Both the position numbers and the translations under genes were made by a program. From Protoeuglena noctilucae (taxonomy: Eukaryota): a stretch of DNA of 20,000 nucleotides. Numbering within the stretch: position 1 is the stretch's first letter; the number at the start of each line of letters is the position of its first letter. The stretch is taken from NCBI GenBank assembly GCA_958009085.1, contig OY253680.1:976576-996575 (forward strand), given 5' to 3'. The notes under the pieces were generated by a model. That model did not search any database and was not told the origin of the DNA. It was given only the letters and a program-made list of their open reading frames with translations. Below, piece after piece: positions 1 through 20,000 of this stretch.

Positions 1-3000
1 GCTCGTTGCTCCGCACCAGCGACACGATCACCACCTCGGCCTCCTCGCCCTGAAAGTTGTCCACGGTCGCCACGCGCACCGACTGACTGCAGAAGCGGCA
101 ACATGCCCTCGTCTCGCACGCAGCCTAGTCTTCAGGCGCTGTCATCAGATCGACTATTGCTCGCCTCACAACGCCTAACCTCGCACTCCCCCACCCGTGC
201 CCTCATCTTAACTGCACTGCGTCACACTCCCCCACCCATCTCCTCACCCCAGCTGTGTCCTGGCCACTGTCGCGCTGACTCCCGCCTCTGTCTCCGCCGC
301 GTCCTGCTCCTCCGCCCTCGCCACCTCCTCCATGTCTGCACGCAAGCCACCGAGTGCAGATTGCGATGTGCGTCAGCCAACTGCACTCCCCGCGGCAGCC
401 TCGGCAGACCCCCGCCAAGCCCCGCCCACCTCGGTCGTTGACGGTGACGACGAACTTGCCCTGCAGCCTGTTGCGGATGGCCAGCAGCTGCCCCACGTAC
501 GGCGTCAGGATGGCGATCTCCCCCCTGCTCCCCCTCCCCTGCCCCACGTAGCCGTGCATGGTGAGGTACTCGGCCAGCGCCACCACCAGGTCCGCCTCAA
601 AGGCGTTGGTCTTGGACTTGGAGTCGTCGTGGGACCCCTGGCCGCTCTCGGGCTCACTGTGCGTCATCCACAGCAGCGGCGCCGCCATGCCCGCCACCGC
701 CGGGTACTCCCTCACGCGCGGGGCGTCTTGCAGCAAGGGGTAGATGGGCCGGCGGATGAGGTCGGCGATTTCCGGCCGCATGCGCCACTGCTGCCGCAGC
801 GTGACCATGGACAGCTGCGGCATGGCGCCCGCCTCCACCCCCAGCGCCAGCCTCTCGAACAGCGACAGGTCCAGGTTGTACCCCCTCCCCGACTCCACCT
901 TGAGCTCGTAGCCCTCGACCTTGGGCCGCAGCTGCTCGTGGTCTCCGATTAGCACCAGCTGCTCCACCTGCCCGTGCATTGACGTGAGCACGTGACTTTC
1001 CAGCACCTCCCCCGCCTCCTCCACCACCACCACGCGGGGCGTCACCGCCGCCAGCAGGCCCTTGTGCGCCGCGCAGAAGGTCGTCGTCATGCCGATCACC
1101 GACACCCCCTGCAGCACCCGCTCGTTCTTCTGCTCGTGGATGGCATCCACCTTCGACTTGGCCTCGTGGAACTCACGGATGGTCTGGGGGCGGGGAGGGC
1201 CGTGAATGGACTGAAATGCCGGCTTGGATCAGCCCCTTGCTGTCGCTTACCACCTGGCTCGCCCACCACGCGCTAGCCCACTCCCCATCCCTCACCCTAC
1301 CCCGCCCGCTGTCCCTCTTGCTGCCCTGCTCACCCTGCCACCCTTGCTACCCTGCCCCCGCCCCACTCGCCTCCGACAGCTCTTCTCGTCCGCGCCGCCG
1401 CGCCTCCTCCACCAGGTGGGCGTGCACCAGCCGTCGCTCGTCCCGGCTCATCACGAAGGCGTCCGGCAGGGCCAGCAGCACGTCCAGGGGCCTCGGAGAC
1501 GCCCCCGTGGGAATGGCCGCGCGCTCTTGGTGGTATGCCGCCTCGTATTCGAGAGCAGCGCTGATCCAGTCCGGCTCCCACCCCATCCGCTCCATGCGCT
1601 CCGCCCACGTCGCCGGCCTCTCCTTGCCCTTCTTCTTCTTCCCCTTCTTGCCGACCACCTCCACGTCCGCGTCCTCAGCCAGGTCGAGCAGGTCGAACCG
1701 GTTCCTGGCCACGTGCGCCCCAGGCCTCCTCTCAGCTTCCCTGTGATTGTGGGCACGGGTTGATCGCGACGAGCACCGAGCGCTGCAGGTCATCACCCTG
1801 CGGCGTGTGCATGCCCTTCCTGCCCTTACCTGACCCTCTTCCCCTATCAGTAACATGTCCCAGTACCATCCCCTCACCTCTCCTGCACCTCCACAAATCT
1901 GACGACCTCCTCCCATGCCACCGATGCCGGGCTCGCCCCCTCCAGCCACATCCTGATCGTGAAGAGCGGCAGCGGGAACCCGTCCTGGTCGACCCCAGAT
2001 CCCAAGGCGCTGTCCAGCGACTGGTGGATGCCCAATGCGCCCAGGGAAAGCGCGGCCGCCACGACATCCACCTGCAAACGCAGTGAGACGCAGGGCGATG
2101 GGCGAGAGGGAAGGAGGGACAGGGAGGGACGCAAGACAGGAATGAAAGAGGCTCCATACACCCTGCACAGGCAGCCATGCACACATGTCCCAGTGCACCC
2201 TGCACAGGTAGCCATGCACTCTACGCATGCCCCCTGCAAGCGGATGCCGCCTCACGTCGTCGGGCTCTCCCCGCAGCGCCTTGACAGACGCCCCGAGTTT
2301 CTTGGTGGCATTTTCGAGGGACTTTCTGGCAGAGGCGAGGGAGAACCCACGCATGTCGACGTCGCGGGTCTTGATGGACAGTTGCAAGAGCGTGAAGGTC
2401 TCCAGGCGGGGGCTCTTGGGGCGGCCCAGACGCACTGCAGGGGATGGGGGAGCGAGGGGTCCTGGGCCAGTGCAAGAGTGCAACCTTTGTCAGCGCCGCA
2501 GCTGGCGGGCAGCAGACCGGCATGGCACGGTTGTCACGGCAGCCGCGTGCGCTGCAGGCGCGTCTCACCGATGCTGGTGACGCCCGCGTCCAGCAGCGCT
2601 TCCAGGAACTGGTCCAGGGCGTGGTTGGTGAAGCACAGGCACATGATGGGGCCCTTGACGGCGTTGGACTTGACGAGGGCCAGCACGGCCTTGACGCCGA
2701 TGAAGGTCTTGCCGCAGCCTGGTGGGCCCTGGATGAGGCTCAGCCGGTCGCACATCATGCTCCGCAGTGCCTGCCCCTGGCTCTCGTCCAAACCCAAAAC
2801 ACGCGCGGCCGCCTCGGTGGGGAAGGCCCTCGCATCCGCGCAGCTGATGGCTGAGAGGGTGGTGCGGTCCCCCTCTGCCAGCACCGCGTCTTTGGGAAGG
2901 AGCTTGGTCAGGTCCACCTTGCGGTCAAGGCCCCCCAGCCGGTTCGGCTGCGACGCGGTGCCCCCGCGTGCCACGACGGTGACGGTGACGTGCCCCCCCT

Positions 3001-5630
3001 CCCATCCTATGCGGCCGGGGAGGTCGGCGATGCATGTCTCCGAGAACCACGCGGGGAAGGCGGGGAGCTTCTGCAGGGCCTCGAGCACCGGCCGGTAGGC
3101 GAAGAAGCTCCCATCCGACCTCAGCAGCACCATCTGCCCCTGCACCTGCATCACGTGCGGGTCACGCATGGCCAGGCCGACCAGGGCCGTGTCAGTCATG
3201 TCGCTGGGCTGGAGCATGACGCGGATGCGGTTGTTGTCCAGCACCCGGATCTGGTTGGACCTGCCCCTCTCCGACGCCACCACCAGCATCGACACGCGGA
3301 AGAGTCCCACAAGGCGCCGGTGGTCGTTGGCGGCGATGATCTCGTCGCAGAGGGACTGGGGGGGACGAGAGATGGTAGGAGGGGTTCGACAGCGCAGGTG
3401 AGAGCTGCTGCGTAAGCGGAGGAGTTGCTCAGGGAGGGCCACAGCAGGCGCATGAGAGCACAGCCGTCATCAGCAGAGCCGCTGTCAGAGCATGGCATGG
3501 GTAGAACAAGCCCTCGCACTCGCCTGCGTGAGCGCCGTGGTTGGCCACAGCAGCGTCACCAGCGTCCCGCGCGACAGTCGCTTGGTCGTCTCGAAGTAGT
3601 GGCGGCGCATGCCCTGCGTAGCCCTGTCCAGGAACGCCGGTCCCTGCACTTCCACCGCCAGCAGCATGCCCAGGTAGGGGTCGAACTCGATGGTCTTCAC
3701 GGATGCGTTGCGGTACACGTCCAGCCGAATGTCGTCCGACCCATGGCGCGCGGCATCCCGGCCCCGGCCGTGGCTCAACGCTGCGTGGGCGAGCGCGGCG
3801 CTGTAAGGGGCGCTGCGTGACGAGGCAGATGCAACCCGGCAAGCCGTGCAGACGGTTGCCTACCTGACATGACCTCGTTCCGCGCAAACGCCTGCACGCT
3901 AGTGCACAGGGGCTGCACCAGGTCGTGACGCAGGAGTCGGAAATGAAGGTCGGCCAGTGCCTCAGGGGTGCCCTTGACCATGTGGGGACTGCCGCCACCC
4001 TTGTTGTGGGGCAGGTACGGGGTCAGGGGGCAGAGGAGCTCCTGGGGCGTCGGCACCACAGATATCTCCCGGATGTCCTCCTTGTCGTTGTCGTGCCTGG
4101 GACCACCCCCGTTGAGAGCGCCGGGTCCGCAGTCGGGGTTGTCCGAGATCCGCAGCGCTCCCATCTGAGGGACAAGAGCAACCAAGCGTTGCATTGCCGC
4201 AGCCACTTGCGCCCCGCCGTCGTCCATCGACCCCGCCCCCCGCTCACCTGCTCCAGGACCTCCAGCCGCTGCTGGATCTGCTCGTGCCGGCGCTGTGCGG
4301 CCTCCTGCTGCGCGAAGAAGGCCCGACGCCGCAGCAGCCCCGAGTTCAGCTGCACCAGCTTGGCCTTGACCGCTCGCAGCTCGGCCCTGCGCACAGCAAA
4401 GCACACACGGAGTCGGCAGGGGAGGGCAGCCAGTGCTCATCGCGCGTGGCGCGTCGCTAGGCCAGTCACGTGTTCCCGAATGCCTCGTTGGCAGCCCATG
4501 GCATGCAGTGCTCGATGATGAGGAGCGAGTCGCTGATGGCAGAGAGGGACACGGCGGGGTCGAGGCCCGAGATCCCCAGCATGCTCATCCACTTGTACAG
4601 CAGCTCCAGCACCACTAGGAAGGTGCCGAGGAGGCTCTGCGGAGACGACAAAGCGCTTGGATGGTCGGGCCAGAGCATGGACATGTATGGCGAAGAGCCG
4701 CGTCCGCAGCCATCCGCAGGGCTGAGGGCCTTTGCGGATCTGACCTTGCTTTCAGCAGCAGCACCGCGGAAGGACCCAATTGGGATGGCCCGCACCCCCG
4801 CAGCTGCGCTCTGGTGGGCCGCGTGGGTGACGAGCGCCACCACCAGACCCGGCATGGACCAAGACGTGGCCAGCTTGCGGGTGATGGGTGTCGTGAGGTG
4901 CCCGAGGGGAGAGTTGACGACCTGGTCCTTGGTCAAGGCCACCAGGAACGTCACCAGCGTCCCCACGGCATGCTCAAGCTGAGGGGCGGTGCCCACGTCG
5001 GCGGTGCTCCAAGGTAGCCGCCCGGTCCCGGTCCCCTCGTCCGCGCTCTCCATGGCCCTGCGTGCGAGGTGGCAGCTCAATGGCGTTTCCCTGAATGGCT
5101 GGCAGCCACACTGCGTCTCATGTTCCGTATCGTGCTCACCTCGTGTACTCCCCCACGAACAGCGGGCTGACGTTGATGCTCTCCGTCGCTGCGTTCCACA
5201 TATCCTCCACCAGTTGCAGCCCTCGGCCGGTTCTGTCCCCCGACTGTTGGCTGGGGCCCAGGAGGGTGAGGAGCTTGGATGCATCGGACGAGGCAAGCTC
5301 ATAGGCTGCGTCGGCGATGGTCCGGGCCTCGCGGGATCCCACCGCTCGAGGAGGACCGTTGGAGGGCGCGATATGCTTGTAGATGGCCGCAAAAGCTTTT
5401 TCCTCGGGCGGGCGATTGTCGGGCGCGCCGGGGGGTCCACGACCCCTGCCCTGGCCGCCTCGGCCGCCGCGTTGGCCAAACAACCCGTTTCCTGCAAACG
5501 AAGAGGATTGATCTCAGTCTCCGCAGGTGTGCGCCATCTGTGAAATGACGAAAACGTGCGCTGCGGTACCTGGGAACGGGGCACCTCGCCCGCGGTGCAT
5601 CGCGCTCCCGCCTCTCGCACGACCCAACAT
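1..5630 (-). CDS. ZNFX1: ZNFX1/NFX1-type zinc-finger-containing protein 1-like (Hrr1/SAD-3-like) UPF1/DNA2-NAM7 superfamily 1 RNA helicase; C-terminus runs off the window
   Basis: Inferred exons (minus): 5630-5570, 5491-5140, 5057-4745, 4636-4470, 4386-4248, 4164-3864, 3780-3524, 3355-2569, 2434-2256, 2071-1878, 1797-1371, 1183-430, 335-248, 86-<1. Phases are consistent (about 1368 codons). Motifs: GPRHDND..DIREISVVPT..ELL, HFRLLRHDL, IQGPPGCGKT (I), CFTNHALDQFL (Ia), VIGMTTT, VVVEEAGEV (II), LIGDHEQLRP (III), LDLSLFERL, QWRMRPEIA, AILTPYVGQL, TVDNFQGEE..VIVSLVRSN (V). Start gccATG at 5630 with an RGG-rich N-terminus. The zinc fingers are not in the window, so the symbol is a family-level call. 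Confidence 0.85.
1184..1370 (-). other. GC-AG intron in helicase gene (187 nt)
   Basis: GAG|GCGAGT...GCCCCCAG|ACC joins ...REELSE to TIREFHEAK in phase 0. The neighbouring GT (GCGA|GTGGGG) is phase 1, and the unspliced frame stops at 1347. Confidence 0.75.
2159..2219. repeat. Intronic direct repeat, 2 x 24 nt, period 37
   Basis: CACCCTGCACAGGCAGCCATGCAC (2159-2182) and CACCCTGCACAGGTAGCCATGCAC (2196-2219), one mismatch, inside the 184-nt intron 2072-2255. Confidence 0.85.
3356..3523 (-). other. GC-AG intron in helicase gene (168 nt)
   Basis: CAG|GCGAGT...GTCCCCCCCAG|TCC joins ...WPTTALTQ to SLCDEII in phase 0. The unspliced frame stops at 3485. Confidence 0.7.
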
Positions 5631-6090
5631 GGCGAGGTAATGGGACGTACACCTGCCAAATCAATCAGGGGAAGCTTTGTATAGCCCAAAGGCGACCGCG
5701 AAGACGCGCCCGACCGTTGAAGCACAGTGCGGCCCAGGGGCGGGCGATGCAGCCCGATAGCTGCACGATGCAGTCCCTCGCAAGCCAACGGAGTGCAAGT
5801 AGAAACAATGATGCTTTACAGGATGAGACATCGCCCCGAGAAGCGCTCAGTGATGAGGACGGGGCTCGCACCCGCGAGGAGTCAGCAACCCTAGACTGAC
5901 AGGCCAACGCGGACGAGCATCAGGGCCCTCGGAGTCCGAGAATGCGAAGCTTGGCCACAACGAGTTGCTGCTGTCGCAAGACCCGCGCAGCAGCTGCCGC
6001 TGTCCTTTGCTGCGCGCACCCGTGACAACTAGCCGGCAAAGAGACGTCGAAGGAAGCGTTTTGCCCTGAGAACTTGCAGCTCATCGAGGC
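5631..6090. promoter_or_regulatory. Putative bidirectional promoter and 5' UTRs between helicase and kinase
   Basis: 460 nt between divergent inferred start codons (5630 minus, 6091 plus), less GC-rich than the exons. Positional inference only. Confidence 0.5.
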
Positions 6091-8365
6091 ATGGATGGGC
6101 AGGGTCCTCAGAATGGGCGGGAAGAGCTCCGGTCGGCCTTTCAGCCAGGTGAGCGGCGCGTGGGGGCGCATTTCAGCCCGAGGGAAGCCCGGACGCATTA
6201 CACGGGTCCCTACTGCGACGCATGACGATGCTGCAAACGTCGCCGTCCTCCCTCGCAGCGGAAGAACGGCCTCGGACCCTCCATGACATTCCCCGCGTGA
6301 CCGCGGGGCCCTCCTGCAGCGCGCTGGCCAGGTGCGAGGGATCGCGGAAGATATTTCCCACCTTCAGTGATGTATCTATCTCCCACGAAGCCTCACCCGG
6401 CTTTACGACCTCGCGCAGCGCCTCTGATCCCCCCGCAGGGCCAAGGTCGGACTCCAGGGGGTCTACCGCCGCATCGCGAGCCGGGATGTGGCGGGAGAAC
6501 CCAAGTTCCTGCTGGACGGGACGTGAGTCGCGATCACAACCTGCCGCTGCGGCTCCCGGCCCGCCTGACGCCGCGTGAGTGCCCGTCTGCGTGTCCCTCG
6601 CAGGCTGGCCTTCTCCGCCGCGACTCCTCTGCTCGGCGGGCGGTACCGCTTCGTTGCGGAGATCGGGTCCGGCGTGAGCAGCCAGGTGGTGCTGGCCGAG
6701 GACACGTACATGGTGCGCGACCACCCGACCCACGTGGCAGTCAAGGCGAGGCATCCACCCAGGCAGCGGTTGCAATGGCACCCTTGCACCTCTCATAGCG
6801 CAATTCGCAGGCTTCTTGATCCCCCGCAGGTGCTGCGCCGCAACCACAACTGCGCGGCGGCGGGCCTGCACGAGGCGCGCGTGCTGCGCCTGCTGGCGTC
6901 TGGCGCGCCCCCTCATCCCAAGACCCTCCCCCGCCTGCGCGCATGCTTCTGCGCGTGGGGACACGTGTGCCTGGTCCTCGACCGCCACTACGCCCCGCTC
7001 CTCGACCTGCTCCCGGAGAGCTGCAGCCTGGACCCTGCACGCCGCATCTGCCACATCCGCAGAGTGGCGCGGCAACTCGTGGGGGCCCTCGCGCGCCTCC
7101 ACCGCCGCGGCCTCGCGCACGCGGACGTCAAGCCCGGCAACGTGCTCCTCCGCGAGCCCCTCCCCCGCGCCCTGGCATCCGACCACGTCCCCGTCTGCCT
7201 GGTGGACATGGGGGCCGCCGTGGCGCAGGGAGCGGACCCCGCGGCCATGCTGGGGTCGGACGCGCAGACGCTCTACTACCGCGCGCCCGAGGTGGCGGCG
7301 GGCAAAGGCGTGGGGCCCTCCGCCGACCTGTGGAGCCTCGGGTGCGTGCTGGCGGAGATGGCGCTGCTGCGGCCGCTCTTCCCGGCATCGACCCCCGCTG
7401 ACCTCCCGCGGCTGTGGCGGCGGGCGCTCGTCCCCGGCACCGACGGCGGCGACGCGGGTGACACCCCCCTCTCCTTCGCCACGCGCGTTGGTGCGGCTGA
7501 GGAAGGCCCTGCGCCCCCGGGGTCCCCCGCGCGTGCGGCGTGGTCCCTGGAGCCGCCGCTGGTGGTGGAGCTGGGTCGCCTCGACCGCTCCCTCGCCGCG
7601 CTCGTGAGGGGGCTGCTGGAGTCTGACCCCAAGCACCGGCTCACGGCAGAGCAGGCGCTGCGGCACCCATTCCTGGCGGAGGAGGGGGACGGAGAGGGGG
7701 GCGGGGGGGGCGAGGACGCGCGGGCGGGGAGGGCATCGAGCGCCGCGTCGCTTCGGGAGGCGGGGCGGAGGGCAGTGGCGGAGGCGGCGGAGAGGGCGGG
7801 GCCGGCAGCGGCGGTGGCAGAGAGCTCTTCTAGGGGACCTGCTGGCACCGTGCGACGTGGGACATCGTTCCACGATCATCTGGCGCGGATGCGGGCGGAG
7901 AAGCGGGAGCAGGAGTACCTGGGGCGCATCCAGGCGCGGGCGAGGGAGAGGGCAGGGGCAGGGACAGGGGCAGGCGGCACCCCTGGCCCAGTGCGGCCGC
8001 GGGTGTCCCACGGGGCGGCAGACGAGGCGGGTGCTGGTGCGGGTGCGGCAGGGGCCGTGGGCGCTGCTGCCTCGAGTGCCTCTGCGGGCGCTGCGGCACC
8101 GGGGGCATCGGAGGAGGCGGCGACGACGCGAACGGTGGGGTCGGGGGGGCGTGGGGGGGTGCGGGAGCAGCAGGGGGGCACGCCGGGTGGGAAGGGCGCG
8201 CGGTCGCGTAAGCGGGAGTGGGGCGAGAAGGAGGGGAGTGGGGATGAGGAGGAGAGGGATGGGGCGGAGCGTCGGGGGCGCAAGGGTGGAAGGGACAGCG
8301 GGAGGGAGAAGCGGTCGAGGCAGAAACCCCAGGCGTGGTGGATGGCGGGAACTGGCGAGGGGTAG
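6091..8365 (+). CDS. Ser/Thr (CMGC group, DYRK/HIPK/PRP4-like) protein kinase, about 630 aa, with low-complexity Ala/Gly/Arg/Glu-rich C-terminal tail
   Basis: Inferred exons 6091-6148, 6259-6331, 6439-6522, 6604-6745, 6830-8365 (1893 nt = 631 codons). Motifs: RY...EIGSGVSSQV, VAVK, HVCLVLD, HADVKPGNVLL, LVDMGAA, QTLYYRAPEV, ADLWSLGCVLAEM, DPKHRLTAEQALRHPFL. The first three exons are less certain than the kinase domain. Confidence 0.88.
6746..6829 (+). other. GC-AG intron in kinase (84 nt, in-frame, stop-free)
   Basis: AAG|GCGAGG...CTTGATCCCCCGCAG|GTG. Removal restores VAVK-VLR..E spacing between beta3 and alphaC. Confidence 0.8.
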
Positions 8366-8580
8366 GGGGCGGAGCGGTTGTGAATGCCCGGTGCTAACAC
8401 TCGCGATCTTATGGGGTGTGCATAAGTTGAAGGCTGCTCATACGTCTACGCTTCAATCGCTCGTCGCCATCGGTGTCGACTTCATTGAAAACTTGCACAT
8501 CTCTGCTTTCATCACTCGCCCTCAACTGTGTCACTCGCTCATTGCAGCCGCTCGTCACGCATCGCTAGGCATCGTCACAT

Positions 8581-11500
8581 TCACTTCCCCTCACCCCCCC
8601 CACTCGCACCCCCTCCGGCCTCCGTTGCCCGCCTCCCCCGCACGCACTCGTATAGCGCGACGGCCCCCGACACGTGCACGTTGAGCGACCGCACCAGCCC
8701 CACCTGTGGGATCTCCACGCACGCATCCAGCGTGTCCAGCACGGGGGGCGGGATGCCGTGCCGCTCGTGGCCCAGCACCAGCGCCGTGCGGGGGGGGAAG
8801 GCGAACCCCGGGAGTGGCCGCGACCGTGCCGTCTGCTCCAGGCCTATGAGGGCGTACCCGGCCGCGCGCATCCGCAGCAGCCATGGGACCAGGTCCGACG
8901 GGGGCACTGCCTCGATGGCCACGTGGTGATGAGCCGTGACGGAGATGTCAGAGAAGCTGGGGTCGCGCAGACCAGACAGGGACGGGAGCACCAGCCGTGA
9001 CGCGCCCAGCACCTCGCACGTGCGCGACAGCCCCGCCTGGTTGGGCACCTTGTCGACCAGGGAAGCGACCACCACCATGCCCCACGCACCGCGGCGAGGG
9101 CGGGGCGGGGCACGCGGGCCCTCCACTCCATCCGCAGCCTCCCCCAATGCCGCGTCCGCCTCTCCCAGCGTCTCTGGCACTGCACCCTCGATCGCGTCCC
9201 GCCATGGGCGTCACCTTGCGCTGCGTGCCCGCCTGTCCCCCACCCTCCGCCACCCCCTCTGCCACCGCCGCCCCCCTCAGCACCGCCAGCGCCGCCCGCC
9301 TCTCTGCCCCCACGAACGCCAGCACGGCGCTGAGCAGCGACGCCGGGCACCCCTCAAAGGGCGGCTCTCCCTTTTTGCCAGAGTGACCGGGTGCGGAGGC
9401 CGTGAGGTTGAACACCTCCTGCACCCCCACCCAAGCGCGGGGGTCCGGGGACGACAGGTGCGGCGCCACGGCTGCCACCATGCGCTGCGTCTCTTCGTTG
9501 GCGGCGCAGAAGGCCTGCAGCGCAGACAGGCACGCCACGCCCACGCCCTCCGCCCCCTGCGCGCCCACCGCCCCTCCCCCGTTGGCCTTCCCGGCTGTGC
9601 CCGGCTCTCCCACGGCCCAGGCGGGGTGCCCCGGGGGGTATGCCCCCAGCACCTGGAACATGGCGATGAGGGCCATGGACCGCAGGCCGTGGATGTGGCT
9701 GGTGGCCCAGGGGAGGAGGCGGGGGACGAGGGCGCGGAGGAGGGGGCCGGCAGCGGCGGGGGAGGGGGGGCGCAGGAGCATGCGTGCCGCCACTGCCACC
9801 AGTGACACGGCTGCCTCGTGCTGGGAGGAGAAGTCCCCCAGCCGCGGTGCGAGGAAGGTGACGGGGAGTGTCGCGTCTGATGCCACCAGTCGCGTGAGGA
9901 ATGCCTCGGCCAGGCGCCGCACCCCCGGTGCCTCGTTGCGTCTGAGGGCCGCCTCGGCCGTCGCGAGTGCCGATGGGGGGGACGACCGCGACATGAGATC
10001 CGAGGCGTCGCAGGGGATAGCTGAGGGAGGGGATGGGGGGTTGTGGAGTGAGACATGCTAATGGGAGTTGGGGCAGACGTGTCGCATGCATTGCTGAGCC
10101 ATGCGTGTCGTCCCTCGCCTGTCCCTTCCATAGCAGCCGTCGCCTTGGCCAGGTCCGCGTCCCCCATCTGCGCCGCGGCTGCCAGTGCACGCGGATCGGC
10201 CACCGCGTTGCTCAGCACCCCCAGTGCCTGCCACAGCCGCACCTTGCCGCGGTGCGTGGGCGAACGGTCCATGTAACTGCGGAGAGAGAGGGGCAGCGAT
10301 GGATGCCCCATGCATCGCCAGAGCTGGTCCACCCCACAGCTTGCCGACCAATCAGTCCCCACTGCACGTCCCCCCACCACACCCCTCTCACCTCCCCGAT
10401 GCCAGAACGGGGTCCTCCACTGCGTCCCACAGAAGCGACCCCGCCACCACCCGCGCCACCAGCGCCGCATCCCCCGCACCCGCGCCCCCCCCCACCGCCC
10501 CCGCGCACAGCCCCTCCAGCATCCCCAGCGCCGCCAGCCTCGGCGCATGCTCCGTCGCCCCCCACCGCCCCAGCCCCTGCCCCTCCGCCCCATGGTCATC
10601 CGCATCGCCCCCCTCCGCACCCGTGTGTGCCTCGCGGCGCCCCCACCCTTCCAGCGACAGCAGCATCGCGCGCAGAGTGTCCAGGTGGGGCAGCGCCGAC
10701 CGCGGCCACCGACCCCACACCCGGCACAGGTGCAGCGCCGCCAGCCGCGCCACGCGGGGGGACCGCTCCCCCTCGGCCCAAACCGCAGCCACCCACGCGC
10801 GCGCCGGCCCTCCCGGCCCATGCAGCGGCGCCAGGTCAGCGCGCGCGAACAGCGCGGCTGGCAGCGTCGCCCGCAACAAAGCGCTCACCACCGCCGGCAC
10901 TCGGTTGCGCCGCATCCCCAGCAGCACCTCCCCCGCCACCCCCACCAGCCGCCCGTACCACCCCGCCGCTCCCCCCTCCCCGACCCCCAGCTCCTCCCCG
11001 CACTGCGCCCCCTGCGCCGCGTCCTGCAGCACCGCCTCGCTCAGCACCGCCACCACCTCCAGCAGCGGCAGCAGAGCAGCGCCCGCCCCCTCCGTGGCCG
11101 ACGACACCGCGCGCCCCAGCAGCCGCCCCGACTGATCCCGCGGCAGCACCCCACGCAGCCCCGCCCCGCCCTCCCCCACCAGCGCCGCCAATGCGCGCCA
11201 CGCCGCCCCGGGCACCGCCCCCCCCGCCAGCGCCCCCCTTGCCACCGCCGCCGCGCACCCTGGTGCCCCCCTCGCCACCCTCGCCGCCATCTCCCGGGCC
11301 ATGTCCCTTGCCGCCGCCAGCACCGACCCACGCCGCGCGGCTGGTGCCTCCGCCCCCGCCGGGTGCCCCGACGCCGTCCCAGGCTGGGCGGGCGCCGGTC
11401 CCAGTGCCCCCGCCACCAGCGTCGCCAGGGCATCCCAGGCGGCCGCCCGCCCAGACGCCGCCGCCCGCTCCCCGAACCACTCGGCCACGGGCATGAGCTC

Positions 11501-14500
11501 ACCCAGGGCAGCCGCTGCCTCCCTCCCCGCCACGGCGTCCAGCCAATCCGCCTGTGCCTCGGGGGTCGTGTGCGCGGGTACTCCCTCAGGTGCATCCGCC
11601 AACGCCGGCAGGCACGCCCCCACGAGCGCCGCCCACTCGACCCCCGACTCGAGCACCCCCCGGCACACCAGGTACGCCCGGGACAGGCACGACGCGGCCA
11701 GCGACGCACGGGCGTCCGCAACGCCCTCCGCCTGCGCACCCAGTGCGTCCCCCAGCCACGCCCGCGCCACCTCGGCCACCCCCGCCGCGCACTGCCCCAG
11801 CAGCCCCGCCCCCACCGCCGCCTGTAACGCCACCGCGTAGCGCTCCCCCTCCTCCGCCGCCGCCCCTGCCCTCGCCGCCCCCCTCAGGCACCGCATCTGC
11901 TGCTCCTCCTCCCCCAGCAGCGCCCCCAGCAGCGCCACCGCCCTCTCCGCGTGGCCGCGGGGGCCGTACTGCCGGCGGAAGGCGCGCGAGGCAGCCCCCG
12001 CCGCCGCTCCCATCCACGCCCGCAGTCCCTCCACCCCCGGTCGCGGCCGCCCTGCCCCGCCCTCCCCGCCCCCCCACAGCCCCACCGATGCCGCGTGCAG
12101 CATGCACACGCGCGCCACCCGCGCCGCCTCCCCCGCCCACGCCCCCACCTCCCCCGCCCCCACCGCCTGCGCCTCTCCTTGCTTACTCGTCGCACCCCCC
12201 TCCCCCAGGTACGCATCCACCATCTCCCTCACCGCCGCCTCCAGGAACGGCACTGGGCCTGCCCTGCTGTCACTTGCTTCCTCGTCTGGTCCCGACAGCC
12301 AAGCCAGGGTCCAGGCCAGGACGGGGTTGGACGCCCCGGGGAAGAGGGGAGGGTGCTCTGGGGGTGGGAAGCCTGGCCCGCGGCCGTCGCACTGGGTGAG
12401 GGAGACGGCGCGGGGGGTGAAGAGGGGCGAGAGGGCCTCGAGGGGGAGAGCGGCGACCAGGCGCAGGGCCCGGGGGAGCAGGGCGCGGGTGGGGCGCACG
12501 GCCAGGCGGAGGGTGGCGGCGACGTGGGCGAGGAGTTTGTGGCGGACCACGGGGCCAGGCACGCGGTTGACTGCGGGGAGAGGAAGGACGAGTGAGTTAC
12601 AGAACATGGGATGCACAGGGGTGGGATGGCATACCCGGCAGCGCGTCTCACCGAGTGCCACGGCGTCGGTGAGGCGGGCGACGATGGCTGACGACAACGC
12701 GGGGGGCGCGAGTGGGGGTGCCGCCCCCCTGCTGACCCCGGCAGCCACGGCGCTGGCGGACCCCAGGCACGCGGCCAAAGCGACGCGGGACACCTGCGGA
12801 GTCGAGAAGGCGAGTTTGGCGCTGTCAGCCAGGGCTGGTTGCCAAGAGCCACAGCGCCTGTTCTCACGCCACCCCTCGCCTGTGACTTCGTGAGTGCCCC
12901 ATCCAGGATGGCCCCCACCAGGACCAGGGCGTCTTCAGGGTCCATGGATGCGGCGCGGCGGGTGAGGAAGGCAGTCGCAGCATCTCCCTCCGCCCCCTCC
13001 CAGGGCGACTGCTCCGACTGCGCGGGCCCGGCAGCGCTCGTGGGGCGGGCGAGGGCGGGGGCCAAGTGTTTGGAGACGAAGGGGGCGGGGACGGCCGCCA
13101 GTCGCTCGGGTGTCCACTCCACCTCTTGCAGAAAGCTCCCCAGCGCCATCTTGACCACCCCGACGTTGCGGTGCTGGAAGGCGCGCGCGTAGAGCACCAG
13201 CGCCCACGCGGGCGTCAGCCGGCCCTCGACCTTGGCCCACACCGTGTCCACCTCCGTGGCAGCTCCCTTCTCCTCAGCAGCTCCCTCAAGAGTGGCAACC
13301 CCCACTTGGCTAGCACCCTCCCCCGGGAACACGGCGGGCATGTCCTTCCACGCGTGCTCCACCAGCTGCAGCGAGAAGTCCTCCAGCGCCCCCAGCACCG
13401 ACTGGAAGGCCGCCCAGGGGCGGTGGGTGCGGGAGTGGCCAATCGGCACCGCCAGGCCCAGGACGTGGGCGGCGCGCTTGCGAACAAGCGTGTCGTCGCT
13501 CGCCAGTGCGGCCGGCAGCAGCGCCCACAAAGCGGGGTCGTTGCGGGCGTCCACGGGGCCGCGGCCGTCGGGGGGCAGCAGGTGCGTGCCCAGCTGCGTC
13601 AGCACTGACAGACCCAGCGCGGCCGCTGCCGGGCCCGGCAAGGACGTGGGCGGACCCCGCATTGAGCCCTCTCCCTCCCCCTCGCCCGCCGCCGCCACCT
13701 CTGCTCCCTCCCCTGCTACCCCGTCGCCGGGCGCCCACAGCGCACCCGCCCGCACGGCCGCCTCGAGCAGCCCCAGCGCCGCCGCCAGCCCCCCTCGCAG
13801 GTAGCTCCCCAGGCACTCGGCCGACGGGGCGTCGTCAGCGCCCGCCAGCGCCGCCACGGTCGGCAGCACCCCCGCCTGCAGCACGCGCCTGGCCAGGTCC
13901 TCGCCGCCCGCGCCCGCGACGCAAGCCATTGCGGGAGACTCGAACGCAGACGCCGTCCCCACCAGCGCCGCCGCCTCCCTTGCCCGCCCCGCGCCCTGCA
14001 GCGCCGCCTGGTGCAGCAGCAGCGCCACATCCTCGTGCCAGCCAACAGACGCGTCCCCCACCGCCTCGGGCAGCGGGCGGCGCGGACCAGCAGCAAACTC
14101 CTTCGCCAAAGCCTCTGCGCCAGTGTCACTGCCACCCGCCCGCTCCCCCGCCCGGTCTCTCTGCGCCATCCGCACCCGCAGCGCCGCCGCAGCCGCGGCC
14201 GACACCTCGGGTGCGGCGGTGTACCCGTCCGTGGAAGTGGAGCCCATCGCTCCCACAAGCACCCGCAGCGCCGCATCCCGAGCCGAGAGGGACAGCCCAG
14301 GGCCCGCGACGGTGGGGATGACCACGCATGCCACCAAGTGCGGCACCGATGCGGCCGGCAGGCCCGATTCCTCCACGCCCGCTGCCATCAGGGCGCCCAG
14401 GCAGGCCACGCGGACGCGACGGCGGTCTTCCTCACTGAGTCCGGGCCTGCACGCGTCCGAGGCGGCCTCCTGCGCCACCCGGACCATGCCCTCCGCATCG

Positions 14501-14607
14501 CCTGCCCCTGCTGCGCCGGAAAGGCATGCCCGCGCCACGGCGGCCCAAGAGGACGGCTCCAGACCCTCCAAAGCCTCGCCGAGGACCACCCATCGATCCA
14601 AAAGCAT
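8581..14607 (-). CDS. TARBP1: TARBP1/Trm3-like tRNA (guanosine-2'-O)-methyltransferase, SpoU/TrmH family, about 1880 aa; needs a 1-nt frame correction near 9204-9208
   Basis: Inferred exons (minus): 14607-12880, 12793-12652, 12570-10392, 10276-10119, 10020-8581. They total 5647 nt, i.e. 1882 codons after removing one base. C-terminal SpoU domain: VVVASLVDKVPNQAGLSRTCEVLG, GLEQTARS, FPPRTALVLGHERHGIP, CVEIPQVGLVRSLNVHVSGA. Upstream family motifs SPTHRGKVRLWQ, LLPWATSH, FEGCP, QRKVTP(W). Confidence 0.88.
10021..10118 (-). other. GC-AG intron in TARBP1 (98 nt)
   Basis: CAG|GCGAGG...CCCTCCCTCAG|CT in phase 1. It links the HRGKVRLWQ exon to the frame of ORF 8948-9994, and no strong GT donor of the right phase is nearby. 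Confidence 0.7.
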
Positions 14608-14930
14608 GGCGGCTCACAAATCGGCCAAGGGCGGGTCCCTGTGCAAATTAGGGCGCCCCGCGGCGCGCCGGGAACCAAGTGACGGCACCGCCACGTGTCC
14701 GATGACTCACTCGCTTTTACCTGTGTCCGCAGCTGCAAGAGCTGGGGCGCAATCGCCGCCGGCACGCACGTTTTCCTGCAGTCAGCCAGAACGCGGGCAA
14801 GCACTTGCTGGAGGGAGACCCGTCGGCGCTGAGAATTCGTGCATCGTCGGGTACGACACACAAGCTGTAGTAGCTGGGCCAACCATTGCAGCGCAACAAC
14901 AGGCACACGCAAGGGAGTCCTAAAGTTCTC
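14608..14930. promoter_or_regulatory. Putative bidirectional promoter between TARBP1 and TRF4/PAPD5
   Basis: 323 nt between divergent inferred ATGs. Positional inference only. Confidence 0.45.
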
Positions 14931-17177
<2,247 letters not shown>

Positions 17178-17262
17178 TAGTGAGTTCAACACGGCCAGCT
17201 TCTCTAACAAAGGGCGTTAGGCGCCCCTTAGGCACCCTGCCCTGCCTTGAATCGCCAGCGCC

Positions 17263-18109
17263 TCAGAGCTCCTCGGAGAAGACCGACCCAAAGGCGTAGT
17301 ACTGCGGGGGCGGGGCAGTGCAGGAAGGGTGTCAGGCCCAGCCAGGTCATCCCCCATGCATCATCTGCCCCTTCACTCCGCTCCCCTCGCCTTGTTGAGT
17401 GCGTCGGCCATGCCCCCGCACAGTCGGCGGATGACGGCCCTCAGCTCCTCATCCACCGGCCGCTGGTCGAGCTTGACGATCTCGAAGTTCTTGCCCGGCA
17501 CCTGCTTGATCTCGCCCGCCCGCACCGGCATCCCCGTCTCCGGGTCCATGTCCAGGAACTGCGCCTGCTCCGAGTGGCGGTCGTCGAAGCGGAAGGCCAT
17601 CTCCGCCACCGTCTCCCCGTTGCGAAGGATGCACACGCGGATGCCCCACAGCACGGGCTCGCCGTCCTCGTCGCGGAACGTGCTCTCCACCGTCATGGGC
17701 AGCCCGAAGTTGACCATCCCGTTGGTCGCGCACTCCACCTCCGCCCACCGGCTGACCTGGTCCATCAGGTCGTCGCGGGGGATGAAGGCGGGGATCTGCG
17801 GGGGGGGGCGACGACGGAGCGCGTCAGGGGCCAATGGCGGGCGGAGCGGGGCGCGAGCGGAGGCGCCGCGGGTCGCACCTCCGTGGCCGAAATGAGCCGT
17901 GCCTTGCTGTCCTGCACGGCGCGCAACACCCTGCGGGCCAGCGGGGTGAGGGGGCAAGGTGGAGCTGCCGATGTGCGACCGCGATGCGTGGCCGCCCAGG
18001 ACGGGGCGCGGGCGCCGCACCTCGGATGCCGGACGGGCACCGGGAGGGCGCGGACCATGGGCAGCGCGCGGGGCACGCTGGCCACGCGGCAGCAGCACGA
18101 GGCGCGCAT
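17263..18109 (-). CDS. Uncharacterised protein, about 194 aa, probably plastid-targeted
   Basis: Inferred exons (minus): 18109-18021, 17930-17879, 17795-17391, 17301-17263 (585 nt = 195 codons). Start gccATG. The N-terminus is rich in R/A/V/P/S with no acidic residues (MRASCCCRVASVPRALP...RVLRA), like a transit peptide. The body IPAFIPRDDLMDQVSRWA...NFGLP...LNKYYAFGSVFSEEL has strongly GC3-biased codons. Confidence 0.8.
17302..17390 (-). other. GC-AG intron in the putative plastid protein gene (89 nt)
   Basis: AAG|GCGAGG...CTGAC...GCCCCCGCAG|TAC joins ALNK to YYAFGSVFSEEL*. The nearest GT is in the wrong phase. Confidence 0.82.
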
Positions 18110-19765
18110 GGCGAGGCTGGTGGAGACGCAACCTGCGAGGGCGACGTCGCAATCCATGCCGCCGGCGGAGAGACGCGCCAGTGCGGCTGTGAAACACGCG
18201 CACCGGCCGCACCTCGATTTATCTTGTTCCCGCGCGTAGCTCTTTGGATAAGCGAGCTTCTTGACGATCCGGCAGGTGACGTTTTGCACGAGGACTGCGG
18301 CAGAGGGGGGAAGCGCGGCCGGGGTGGGCGCGGGGAGCCGGAGACGCCGCAGAGGGGCGGGGAGGAAACGCTGTAGTCGCGAGCGCATCGCCCGCCTCCC
18401 CCGCGGGCGAGCGGCATGGCACGAGGTCACTGCGACAGACGGCTGCGTGAGAGCCGCCCGAGTCGACCAGGTCGCGCGCGTTCCAAGCACCTGCTCTCAG
18501 CTGGACTCCGGTAGGATGTTCCGCGTCACGACCGGTCACGAACACCTGCACTGAGCGATGTGTGCGCTGCAGCCGGCGCTCATGAGGAGCCGCGAGCTCG
18601 TTTTGCCCATGCCAGAAGCCGCAAGTTGGTTGACGCCCGCACTGCGAGCGCTACGCCTGGACACGAGTCGTTTATGGGGCCTGAATCGCCGCACAATTTC
18701 AAGAGCGCTCTTTGATTCCTTTCCTCTGCTTTCTGCCGAGCCTGCTGAAATCTAAAGGAGTTTCTCTGCCGAAGATCCCGCACATACTGAGTATCAAATA
18801 TGAATGAGGAGATGGTGGTGTCGTCTGGTCCATCTAGCTGCCGTGCTTGACGGGCAACGTTGTCCCGCCGCACACGCTTGGCAGCTGGTGCGCTGTGAGT
18901 CGCGCAAGCAACTACCGAGTGTCCTGAACCGTCCAGTGACACATAGTGACCAGCCAGGCGTCCTGGTCACGTCAGGCGCGACGGCTCCGACGGAGAACGA
19001 CGGGCTCGCCGCCCGCCTGGGGCAGCGGCCGCTACCGCGGGCTGGTGAAGAGCCCCGTGCGCCCCATGCCGCCCGTGCTAAGGGCGTGGCCCAAGTCCAG
19101 CTGAGGTTCCTCTCTGGGCCATGTGTACCCCCCTATGCACCAGCGGGGGTGGCGCCCCCCCACTGCGGGGTGCGCAATTGAGCGACCTGAGAGGCGGGGT
19201 CTGCCGGAGCCCACGCGTGGAGGTGGCTTTCTGGGTGGCATAGGCAGATCGAGCACGTGGCTGGGGCTGCATTTGCTGCGTGAGGCGAGGCCGTGGCTTG
19301 GCTTGGCTCGGCAGGCAGCTGGGGCCCTGCGCGCGCTAAAATGAAAAGCTGAGTGCAGCGGACAGTAGCGCTGGCAAGTATGCTCGTTGGCAGCAATGAT
19401 TTGCTGTCGGGGAGTAAAGAACGCGGTGAGGCACGCATGGCGAGACCATGGGTGGACAGCCGCTGTGGGTGAGAGCTCAGCGTCGCAGAGGCCAGAGGGC
19501 TGGTGTGCTGGACGGTTCGGAGGTGGCTGGGTGTTGCTGCAGTGGCTCAGGCCAGCATCGTGGGGGCGGGACCATGGCCAGCGTTGACGTCGCTGTGCGA
19601 TGCGGCGGATGGGCTGGCCAAGCTCATGCCTGGCAGGGAACTGGCATGAAAGAGGCTCATGTTGCTGCGTCTTTGATGCTGCTTTGTGCAATTTGCTGCA
19701 GGCGGCTGGGCTGTCGCAGCAGCGTGCTGGTTGGGTGGGCAGGAGTGCAAGGAGCGCTGATGCAG

Positions 19766-19831
19766 TTAGGGTTAGGTAAGGGTCAGGTAGGGTTAGGTTA
19801 GGGGTAGTAGGTTAGGTAGGTTAGGGTTAGG
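19766..19831 (+). repeat. Degenerate proximal telomeric repeats
   Basis: TTAGGG TTAGG TAAGGG TCAGG TAGGG TTAGG TTAGGGG TAG TAGG TTAGG TAGG TTAGGG TTAGG. Confidence 0.95.
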
Positions 19832-20000
19832 TTAGGGTTAGGGTTAGGGTTAGGGTTAGGGTTAGGGTTAGGGTTAGGGTTAGGGTTAGGGTTAGGGTTA
19901 GGGTTAGGGTTAGGGTTAGGGTTAGGGTTAGGGTTAGGGTTAGGGTTAGGGTTAGGGTTAGGGTTAGGGTTAGGGTTAGGGTTAGGGTTAGGGTTAGGGT
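19832..20000 (+). repeat. Telomere, (TTAGGG)28, right chromosome end
   Basis: Perfect TTAGGG array to the end of the window, with the G-rich strand running 5'->3' toward the end. Confidence 0.98.

What the first reader, a model, noticed from the sequence alone, without database searches (positions are those of the whole stretch)
1184..17390. About a quarter of introns use a GC donor with invariant AG|GCGAG context
Seen: of 29 inferred coding-region introns, 7 are best explained by a GC donor (1370-, 3523-, 6746+, 10118-, 15356+, 16671+, 17390-) and one more (12879-) may be. All five genes have at least one. All read AG|GCGAG(T/G/C), whereas GT donors here tolerate weak exon ends (AC|GTGAG at 2255, 6523, 15879; AC|GTGAC at 4469). 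Established: GC-AG introns are about 1% in most eukaryotes, with high frequencies known in a few algae such as Emiliania huxleyi. Inference: this lineage may have relaxed +2 recognition, compensated by strict -2/-1 and +3..+5 pairing with U1/U5/U6, or GC pressure may be converting donors. Standard gene finders would mis-model these genes.
Basis: partly seen in the sequence, partly recalled or inferred. Interest (0 to 1): 0.75.

Follow-up and report, generated by a model that had tools for sequence, protein, structure and literature searches.

The report
Frequent GC-AG introns in GC-rich alga
About a quarter of the introns in this chromosome-end piece of a very GC-rich marine green alga really do begin with GC instead of GT, which is genuine but belongs to a pattern already described in other GC-rich microalgae.

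Summary
AG|GCGAG stands at all eight listed coordinates. Zero-mismatch RNA contigs from two marine metatranscriptome runs, both of one study, splice exactly at four of them: 6746-6829(+), 15356-15441(+), 16671-16760(+) and 17302-17390(-). No GT-AG placement is possible within the alignment ambiguity. That is 4 of 13 RNA-supported introns. Alignment with homologues supports two more (3523-, 1370-). Donor 12879- cannot be told from an in-frame GT donor 12 nt away. Donor 10118- rests on motif and frame only, and ten homologues lack the 24 residues it keeps.

Eleven of the 13 RNA-supported donors differ from AG|GTGAG at exactly one position, and GC donors use that one departure at +2. This fits a total-pairing threshold for the donor site.

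The phenomenon is published: GC-AG is 39.6% of introns in Aureococcus, 22.2% in Micromonas pusilla, 56% of 241 mapped junctions in Emiliania huxleyi and about 14% in Pelagomonas. The window looks like a pedinophyte-related green alga, a group for which I found no such report. I rate it a new member of a known kind, of modest interest. The genome-wide frequency and the snRNAs could not be checked because no genome is held.

The parts
6746..6829 (+). GC-AG intron (84 nt) in the protein kinase gene, donor aag|GCGAGG. It lies between the VAVK motif and the rest of the kinase domain.
   Evidence: RNA contig of run X2 joins 6743/6828. The only canonical-type placement is GC..AG at 6746-6829. The Pkinase profile resumes at position 68 in the next exon.
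15356..15441 (+). GC-AG intron (86 nt) in the PAPD5/Trf4-like gene, donor cag|GCGAGC.
   Evidence: RNA contigs of X2 and X4 join 15352/15439, resolved to 15356-15441 GC..AG. The spliced frame stays open.
16671..16760 (+). GC-AG intron (90 nt, a multiple of 3, no in-frame stop) in the PAPD5/Trf4-like gene, donor aag|GCGAGG.
   Evidence: RNA contigs of X2 and X4 join 16668/16759, resolved to 16671-16760. My ab initio models read through it or used a false GT donor.
17302..17390 (-). GC-AG intron (89 nt) near the 3' end of the coding region of a small unnamed gene, donor aag|GCGAGG.
   Evidence: RNA contigs of X2 (depth 121) and X4 (depth 28) join 17301/17391, CT..GC on the + strand.
3356..3523 (-). 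Predicted GC-AG intron (168 nt) in the ZNFX1-like helicase gene, donor cag|GCGAGT.
   Evidence: The 12 residues kept by this donor, and lost with the in-frame GT alternative at 3559, align to the conserved G-S/T-L-V-x-L strand of 14 homologues. No RNA joint was shown.
1184..1370 (-). Predicted GC-AG intron (187 nt) in the ZNFX1-like helicase gene, donor gag|GCGAGT.
   Evidence: The 14 residues kept by this donor, and lost with the GT alternative at 1412, align without a gap to all 14 homologues. By my reading of the sequence, extending the exon towards the GT site at 1295 meets a stop. No RNA joint was shown.
10021..10118 (-). Candidate GC-AG intron (98 nt) in the TARBP1-like methyltransferase gene, donor cag|GCGAGG. 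Unconfirmed.
   Evidence: Frame and motif fit. The only in-frame GT alternative, at 10190, matches the donor consensus at 3 of 7 positions by my reading; one search lists no GT candidate of 5 or more. However, 10 homologues lack the 24-residue segment this donor keeps.
12794..12879 (-). Candidate GC-AG intron (86 nt) in the TARBP1-like gene, donor cag|GCGAGG. Unresolved against the in-frame GT donor ggc|GTGAGA at 12867.
   Evidence: Both donors keep the frame and differ by 4 residues. No RNA joint was shown.
6149..6258 (+). GT-AG intron, cag|GTGAGC. It is the only RNA-confirmed GT donor with the full consensus.
   Evidence: RNA joint in X2.
15879..15967 (+). GT-AG intron with a weak exon end, cac|GTGAGG.
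   Evidence: RNA joint in X2.
17796..18490 (-). Four GT-AG introns of the small gene: 17796-17878, 17931-18020, 18133-18212 and 18295-18490. Donors are GTGCGA, GTGCGG, GTGCGG and GTGCTT. The last two lie upstream of the start codon.
   Evidence: RNA joints in X2 and X4.
1..5630 (-). ZNFX1-like helicase gene, running off the window start. The curated model has 13 introns, 2 of them GC.
   Evidence: AAA_11 and AAA_19 in Pfam, homologues, and a model without internal stops.
6091..8365 (+). Protein kinase gene with 4 introns, 1 of them GC.
   Evidence: Pkinase, E = 1.9e-26; RNA joints.
8581..14607 (-). TARBP1-like gene with a long helical repeat region and a C-terminal SpoU methyltransferase. It has 4-5 predicted introns, of which 1-2 may be GC.
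   Evidence: SpoU_methylase, E = 5e-24; homologues; model.
14931..17177 (+). Non-canonical poly(A) polymerase (PAPD5/Trf4-like) gene with 5 introns, 2 of them GC.
   Evidence: PAP_assoc in Pfam; homologues; all 5 introns have RNA joints.
17263..18109 (-). Small gene of unknown family. Its RNA contigs have the highest contig depth of those laid.
   Evidence: RNA contigs. No Pfam family. Three hits; the only one that carries a name is from Pedinophyceae sp. YPF-701, at 57% identity.
19765..20000 (+). Telomere, (TTAGGG)n, about 40 copies.
   Evidence: Tandem Repeats Finder; sequence.

Best explanation
These are genuine spliceosomal GC-AG introns of the ordinary major (U2) type. They make up roughly a quarter to a third of the introns of this very GC-rich alga.

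Donor sites here behave as if they must reach a fixed amount of pairing with the U1 snRNA 5' end (and later U6 and U5). The consensus is AG|GTGAG, and almost every working donor departs from it at one position at most. 

The high frequency most likely arises because strong GC pressure in a 70% GC genome (mutation bias, biased gene conversion or selection) pushes T to C at a position the spliceosome tolerates. No special machinery need be involved.

Shown: the splicing, the frequency in this window and the compensation pattern. Inferred: the U1-pairing threshold, the GC-pressure cause and the extension to the whole genome.
For: Spliced RNA contigs place four introns at GC..AG with no GT-AG alternative. 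That is 4 of 13 RNA-supported introns, p = 7e-6 against a 1% rate.

Eleven of 13 RNA-supported donors have exactly one departure from AG|GTGAG, one has none and one has two. GC donors are perfect at the other six positions in 4 of 4 cases, GT donors in 1 of 9 (Fisher p = 0.007).

The window is 62-80% GC, training-set GC3 is 0.89, and C/(C+T) inside the confirmed introns is 0.71.

Acceptors are uniform: CAG in 13 of 13 and GCAG in 12 of 13. No donor listed is of the U12 type.

The introns share no sequence with one another, so they are not copies of one element.

Published parallels exist. Very high GC-AG shares occur in the most GC-rich algae, with a canonical U1 5' end in Aureococcus and Micromonas (PMC3033335). 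Aureococcus and Pelagomonas show 14-17% against 0.32% in the less GC-rich Aureoumbra (bioRxiv 10.1101/2024.10.30.620910). E. huxleyi shows 56% of 241 junctions (PMC4028052).
Against: Only 13 introns have RNA support, all from one study and in effect two runs (X2, X4). Runs X1 and X3 gave only unspliced, DNA-like contigs.

Four of the eight GC donors lack RNA joints in the output shown; three joints were not listed. For 10118- the homologue alignment argues against the donor rather than for it.

The genome-wide frequency is unknown because no genome is held.

GC content alone does not predict GC-AG share. Micromonas RCC299, at 64% GC, has 2.7% (PMC3033335). So some change in the splicing machinery cannot be excluded.

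The predicted GC donors were picked by motif. The 8 of 8 against 5 of 24 comparison is therefore circular, and only the RNA-supported subset counts.
Confidence: 0.8

Rival explanations
1. The spliceosome of this lineage has itself changed, so that U and C at donor position +2 are read as equivalent. The change could be in the U1 or U6 snRNA sequence or modification, or in U1C, Prp8 or other donor-proofreading proteins. GC donors are then not merely tolerated but neutral.
For: Among RNA-confirmed donors that are perfect at the other six positions, 4 of 5 carry C at +2. That is close to the intronic C/(C+T) of 0.71, as expected if T and C were interchangeable there. GC content alone does not explain the published differences between Micromonas species, and those authors suggest base modification or U1 snRNP proteins (PMC3033335).
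Against: No GC donor with a second mismatch is seen (0 of 4 RNA-confirmed), so C at +2 still carries a cost. Putative U1 5' ends are canonical in the two algae where this was examined. Five donors is a very small sample. No snRNA or spliceosomal gene lies in the window.
Confidence: 0.15
2. The GC donors are artefacts of gene modelling or of RNA assembly. On this view the true introns use nearby GT donors, or the joints come from template switching or from another organism.
For: In-frame GT alternatives exist for the four donors without RNA joints: 1412, 3559, 10190 and 12867. Homologues lack the segment kept by 10118-. All RNA evidence is from assembled contigs of one study.
Against: For four donors the contigs match the window without mismatches on both sides (table of pieces). 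They were found in two runs for three of the four. They skip segments that end in a pyrimidine-rich tract plus GCAG, and they leave no GT-AG placement. The same contigs carry ordinary GT-AG joints. The spliced frames are open and restore conserved domains.
Confidence: 0.03
3. GC donors are kept as deliberately weak sites that allow regulated intron retention. Three of the eight GC introns (84, 90 and 168 nt) are multiples of three, and at least two of them have no in-frame stop.
For: Introns 6746-6829 and 16671-16760 can be read through in frame. An unspliced contig covers 6619-7028 in run X1. GC donors are linked to alternative splicing in animals and plants (passage in review PMC3488318). 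Retention was linked to non-canonical splicing in E. huxleyi (PMC4028052).
Against: Runs X1 and X3 show GT introns unspliced as well (17690-18142 and 17873-18211), so those contigs look like DNA or pre-mRNA, not specific retention. Open frames are the rule in 70% GC sequence (185 stop-free frames of 60 aa or more). Six of 24 GT introns are also multiples of three.
Confidence: 0.05

Closest known systems
Abundant GC-AG introns of Aureococcus anophagefferens and Micromonas pusilla (Iwata & Gotoh 2011, PMC3033335), and of Aureococcus and Pelagomonas calceolata (bioRxiv 10.1101/2024.10.30.620910)
   Same: These are very GC-rich marine picoalgae (66-70% GC) with GC-AG shares of 14-40% of introns. 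Introns are short and AG acceptors unchanged, and the cause is attributed to GC content. The window's 4 of 13 (31%) RNA-supported and 8 of 32 (25%) modelled introns fall in this range.
   Different: Those organisms are a pelagophyte and a mamiellophyte. The window's PAPD5 gene groups with Pedinophyceae sp. YPF-701 among core green algae, and its introns show no repeated 'introner' sequence. The one-departure rule is my own tabulation on 13 introns, not taken from those papers.
Emiliania huxleyi GC-AG junctions (Feldmesser et al. 2014, PMC4028052)
   Same: In a 65% GC genome, GC-AG was the majority (56% of 241 mapped junctions). Junctions were verified by RT-PCR, and gene predictors that favour GT mis-modelled genes.
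   Different: E. huxleyi is a haptophyte with a higher GC-AG share. GA donors were also reported there, and none is seen here.
Ordinary GC-AG introns of animals and plants (about 1%), with stronger consensus at the other donor positions
   Same: They use the same major-spliceosome type and show the same compensation, with C at +2 accompanied by a near-perfect remainder of the donor. That compensation is recalled from Thanaraj & Clark 2001, which I saw only as a reference title. Frequencies below 1-2% are from PMC7072748.
   Different: The frequency here is 15-30 times higher. The local consensus has G rather than A at +3 (GTGAG/GCGAG).

Membership tests
U2-type (major spliceosome) GC-AG introns | The intron is removed from RNA with GC at its 5' end and AG at its 3' end. 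| tested here: met
   Four introns have spliced RNA contigs for which GC..AG is the only canonical-type placement. The four further candidates were not shown.
U2-type (major spliceosome) GC-AG introns | The donor fits the U1-complementary consensus (AG|GYRAG), not the U12-type donor (RTATCCTT). | tested here: met
   All 8 GC donors read AG|GCGAG, and none of the 32 donors listed resembles a U12 donor. The U12 consensus is as quoted in PMC3033335.
U2-type (major spliceosome) GC-AG introns | A pyrimidine-rich tract and a YAG acceptor. | tested here: met
   CAG in 13 of 13 RNA-supported introns and GCAG in 12 of 13, each preceded by a C-rich tract.
U2-type (major spliceosome) GC-AG introns | Splicing depends on U1, U2, U4, U5 and U6 snRNPs. 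| not testable with these tools
   No genome is held and no snRNA lies in the window.
Genome-wide GC-AG-rich intron sets of GC-rich microalgae | A GC-AG share far above about 1% across the whole genome. | tested here: inconclusive
   Within 20 kb, 4 of 13 RNA-supported and 8 of 32 modelled introns are GC-AG. The whole genome is not available.
Genome-wide GC-AG-rich intron sets of GC-rich microalgae | Very high genomic G+C. | tested here: met
   The window is 62-80% GC per kb and training-set GC3 is 0.89.
Introner elements (repeated, transposon-like intron families of Micromonas and Aureococcus) | Introns share sequence with many other introns of the genome. | tested here: not met
   An all-against-all blastn of the 32 introns gave one 17-nt match and nothing else. 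This covers the window only; genome-wide copies could not be sought.

The most novel reading that the evidence does not exclude
In this green-algal lineage, donor position +2 may have become effectively neutral between U and C. Among donors that are perfect elsewhere, C is as frequent as intron base composition predicts (4 of 5 RNA-confirmed, against an intronic C/(C+T) of 0.71). This would mean a spliceosome whose donor check has lost its discrimination at the most conserved intron nucleotide after +1, arising independently of the pelagophyte, mamiellophyte and haptophyte cases. That would make a pedinophyte-like alga a compact system for asking which spliceosomal component sets +2 specificity.
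Probability: 0.2. Interest if true: 0.55.

Novelty: new member of a known kind. Interest (0 to 1): 0.3.

Why it matters
In practice, any annotation of this genome that allows only GT donors will mis-model a large share of its genes. My GT-only models silently replaced four GC introns with false in-frame GT introns, and one real intron was simply read through.

Biologically, it adds what appears to be a further, independent green-algal lineage to the short list of organisms where GC-AG introns are common. That list is useful for separating the effect of base composition from changes in the splicing machinery. Iwata & Gotoh (2011) called the origin of these abundant GC-AG introns an enigma.

Tried and rejected
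1. Whole-genome tabulation and an snRNA search failed because no genome is held for this window. An Rfam scan of the window found nothing.

2. Ab initio dynamic-programming gene models were too noisy in 70% GC sequence. They read through a real intron, invented GC and GT introns (for example 13685-13605, 4200-4097 and 3883-3801), and missed GTA donors. I used them only as a guide and curated the models by hand.

3. RNA cover of genes 1 and 3 produced no listed joint for 1370-, 3523-, 10118- or 12879-. Contigs of X1 and X3 that run through 12571-12651 and 13605-13685 say nothing either, because the same runs leave RNA-proven introns unspliced.

4. I first suspected a pelagophyte (Aureococcus) and then Prasinoderma coloniale, from GC content, habitat and the TTAGGG telomere. 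Protein hits are green-algal. The PAPD5 tree places the window beside Pedinophyceae sp. YPF-701 with SH-aLRT 99, from a quick tree because the careful search did not finish. Both genomes are about 70% GC, so attraction by composition is possible.

5. A metagenome scan for relatives of the PAPD5 gene, meant for comparing orthologous introns, returned 80 loci at 52% identity or less, with the matched exon uninterrupted. They were too distant for a GT-to-GC comparison and I did not analyse them further.

6. The ESM Atlas gave no usable hit for the small gene.

7. Earlier scan notes held nothing on this genome. Two notes on Ostreococcus introns did not bear on this finding.
Full report
WHAT THE WINDOW IS

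The window is 20 kb at 62-80% G+C. It ends in about 40 copies of TTAGGG from 19765 to 20000, so it is a chromosome end of a eukaryote. No whole genome is held for it.

It carries five genes.
- A ZNFX1-like helicase lies at 1-5630 on the minus strand and runs off the window start (Pfam AAA_11 and AAA_19; homologues).
- A protein kinase lies at 6091-8365 on the plus strand (Pkinase, E = 1.9e-26).
- A TARBP1-like protein with a C-terminal SpoU methyltransferase lies at 8581-14607 on the minus strand (homologues).
- A PAPD5/Trf4-like non-canonical poly(A) polymerase lies at 14931-17177 on the plus strand.
- A small gene without a known family lies at 17263-18109 on the minus strand.

CHECK OF THE OBSERVATION

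AG|GCGAG is present at all eight coordinates on the stated strands. A pattern scan found 12 AGGCGAG matches against 5.0 expected, and 1 of 200 shuffles reached 12. Eight of the 12 are the listed sites.

Four marine metatranscriptome runs of one study hold 15-52% of the sampled words of the window. I laid their contigs on bases 1-19700. Runs X2 and X4 gave spliced contigs. The contigs listed's table of pieces match without mismatches. After resolving the 1-4 nt placement ambiguity, 13 joints are intron-like.

Four joints can only be read as GC..AG:
- 6746-6829(+)
- 15356-15441(+)
- 16671-16760(+)
- 17302-17390(-)

Three of these are seen in both X2 and X4. The other nine joints are GT..AG. So 4 of 13 RNA-supported introns (31%) are GC-AG (binomial p = 7e-6 against a 1% rate). 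The spliced frames are open.

Runs X1 and X3 gave only unspliced contigs, across GT introns as well as GC ones (for example 17690-18142). They look like DNA or pre-mRNA and say nothing about retention.

THE FOUR DONORS WITHOUT A LISTED RNA JOINT

GT-only models find in-frame GT substitutes for all four: 1412, 3559, 10190, and 12872 or 12867.

Donors 3523- and 1370-. I aligned the helicase model with 14 homologues chosen from the 120 listed. The residues kept only by the GC donors are 12 and 14 in number. Those at 3523- align with the conserved G-S/T-L-V-x-L strand of the homologues; those at 1370- align without a gap. Homology therefore supports both GC donors.

Donor 12879-. A GT donor at 12867 (ggc|GTGAGA) is also in frame and differs by four residues. 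This one is unresolved.

Donor 10118-. Ten TARBP1-like homologues, chosen from the 23 hits, lack the 24-residue Ala-rich segment that the GC donor keeps. Homology therefore does not support it. However, the only in-frame GT alternative matches the donor consensus at 3 of 7 positions (my reading; one search lists no GT candidate of 5 or more), and low-complexity insertions are common in this protein. I count it as a candidate only.

THE CURATED MODELS

My curated models translate without internal stops. They contain 32 introns, 8 of them with GC donors. Two lie in the 5' untranslated region of the small gene. One, 9243-9174, is doubtful, because an X2 contig runs through it.

ANATOMY OF THE DONORS

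Acceptors are uniform: CAG in 13 of 13 and GCAG in 12 of 13. The donor consensus is AG|GTGAG.

Among the 13 RNA-supported donors, 11 depart from the consensus at exactly one position, one at none and one at two. GC donors depart at +2 only. GT donors depart at -2, -1, +4 or +5.

GC donors are perfect at the other six positions in 4 of 4 cases, against 1 of 9 for GT donors (Fisher p = 0.007). The larger comparison over all modelled introns (8 of 8 against 5 of 24) is circular, because the predicted GC donors were recognised by the motif.

Other checks:
- No donor is U12-like.
- The introns share no sequence with each other, so they are not copies of an introner-type element within this window.
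- A clear branch-site consensus is absent.

HOW IT MOST LIKELY WORKS

The pattern fits recognition by total complementarity to the U1 snRNA 5' end. This rests on established knowledge of donor-U1 pairing and is an inference here. One mismatch is affordable, and C at +2 is one way of spending it.

In a genome with GC3 of 0.89 and intronic C/(C+T) of 0.71, pressure towards C will convert T at +2 wherever the rest of the donor is strong.

A rival reading is a spliceosome that no longer distinguishes U from C at +2. It is hinted at by 4 of 5 otherwise-perfect RNA-confirmed donors carrying C. Against it, no GC donor has a second mismatch. Neither reading could be tested without snRNA genes.

WHICH ORGANISM

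The best hits of the PAPD5 exon are green algae: Parachlorella 57%, Chlorella 56% and Pedinophyceae sp. YPF-701 53%. Streptophytes score about 50%. The small gene had three hits, and the only one that carries a name is from YPF-701, at 57% identity.

In a quick maximum-likelihood tree of 36 sequences, the window's protein is sister to YPF-701 with SH-aLRT 99, inside the core chlorophytes. The careful search did not finish. I chose 35 of the 120 listed hits for this tree: all the well-named algal and plant representatives plus the best unnamed ones. The branches are long.

The YPF-701 genome is also 70% GC (bioRxiv 10.1101/2021.10.04.463119, passages), so attraction by composition is possible. 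I read the window as a pedinophyte-related marine green alga, species unnamed. My earlier guesses, Aureococcus and Prasinoderma, are not supported by these hits.

COMPARISON WITH WHAT IS KNOWN

For each paper below I read passages only, unless stated otherwise.

- Iwata & Gotoh 2011 (PMC3033335) reported GC-AG shares of 39.6% in Aureococcus anophagefferens (69.5% GC), 22.2% in Micromonas pusilla, 7.7% in Chlorella sp. and 2.7% in Micromonas RCC299. They found canonical putative U1 5' ends and called the origin an enigma.
- A 2024 preprint (10.1101/2024.10.30.620910) gives 14-17% for Aureococcus strains, about 14% for Pelagomonas and 0.32% for the less GC-rich Aureoumbra.
- Feldmesser et al. 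2014 (PMC4028052) found 56% GC-AG among 241 mapped junctions in E. huxleyi. They noted that GT-favouring predictors mis-model genes.
- Frey & Pucker 2020 (PMC7072748) give about 98% GT-AG in animals, fungi and plants.

Searches for 'Prasinoderma' with 'GC-AG' (0 papers) and 'pedinoph' with 'GC-AG' (1 unrelated paper by its title) found no report for this lineage. The library lacks most subscription journals, and I could not see the supplements of the YPF-701 preprint, which may hold intron statistics.

VERDICT

The kind of phenomenon is already in print for several GC-rich microalgae, so this is a new member of a known kind.

Its main practical consequence is for annotation. GT-only models silently mis-build these genes.

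Interest is 0.3. The boldest reading not excluded is a truly neutral +2 position, arisen independently in a pedinophyte-like lineage. I give it a probability of about 0.2.

Noticed in passing
window 19765-20000: The chromosome end carries the vertebrate-type telomere repeat TTAGGG (about 40 copies, with degenerate copies at the inner edge), not the TTTAGGG or TTTTAGGG repeats I recall for Chlorella, Ostreococcus and Chlamydomonas. If the organism is a pedinophyte-related green alga, this telomere type may be worth recording.
   Followed up: partly
window 17263-18560 (-): The small gene has the highest contig depth of those laid (121 in X2, 28 in X4). It has no Pfam family and no usable ESM Atlas hit, and only three sequence hits; the only one that carries a name is from Pedinophyceae sp. 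YPF-701. It has two introns in its 5' untranslated region and an N-terminal extension that looks like a targeting peptide.
   Followed up: partly
window 9174-9243 (-): The TARBP1-like gene needs a frame change just upstream of its SpoU domain. The only candidate intron (agg|GTGGGG...GCCAG, 70 nt) is weak, and an X2 RNA contig (8659-9241) runs through most of it. The true structure here is unresolved.
   Followed up: partly
window 1-5630 (-): The best named relatives of the ZNFX1-like helicase exon are from diatoms and Tribonema (stramenopiles) and from fungi, not green algae, unlike the other genes in the window. This may reflect patchy distribution of the family or a transfer.
   Followed up: no
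window 1-19700, runs X1 and X3 against X2 and X4: Two of the four metatranscriptome runs gave only unspliced, zero-mismatch contigs across introns that the other two runs splice. This suggests DNA or nascent RNA of the same organism in those libraries.
   Followed up: no
window 8581-14607 (-): Compared with ten homologues, the TARBP1-like protein is inflated with Ala/Gly-rich low-complexity insertions, for example 37 extra residues between the HR-KVR-WQ motif and the PSVRQY-like motif. This is typical of extreme GC content and complicates homology tests of splice sites.
   Followed up: partly
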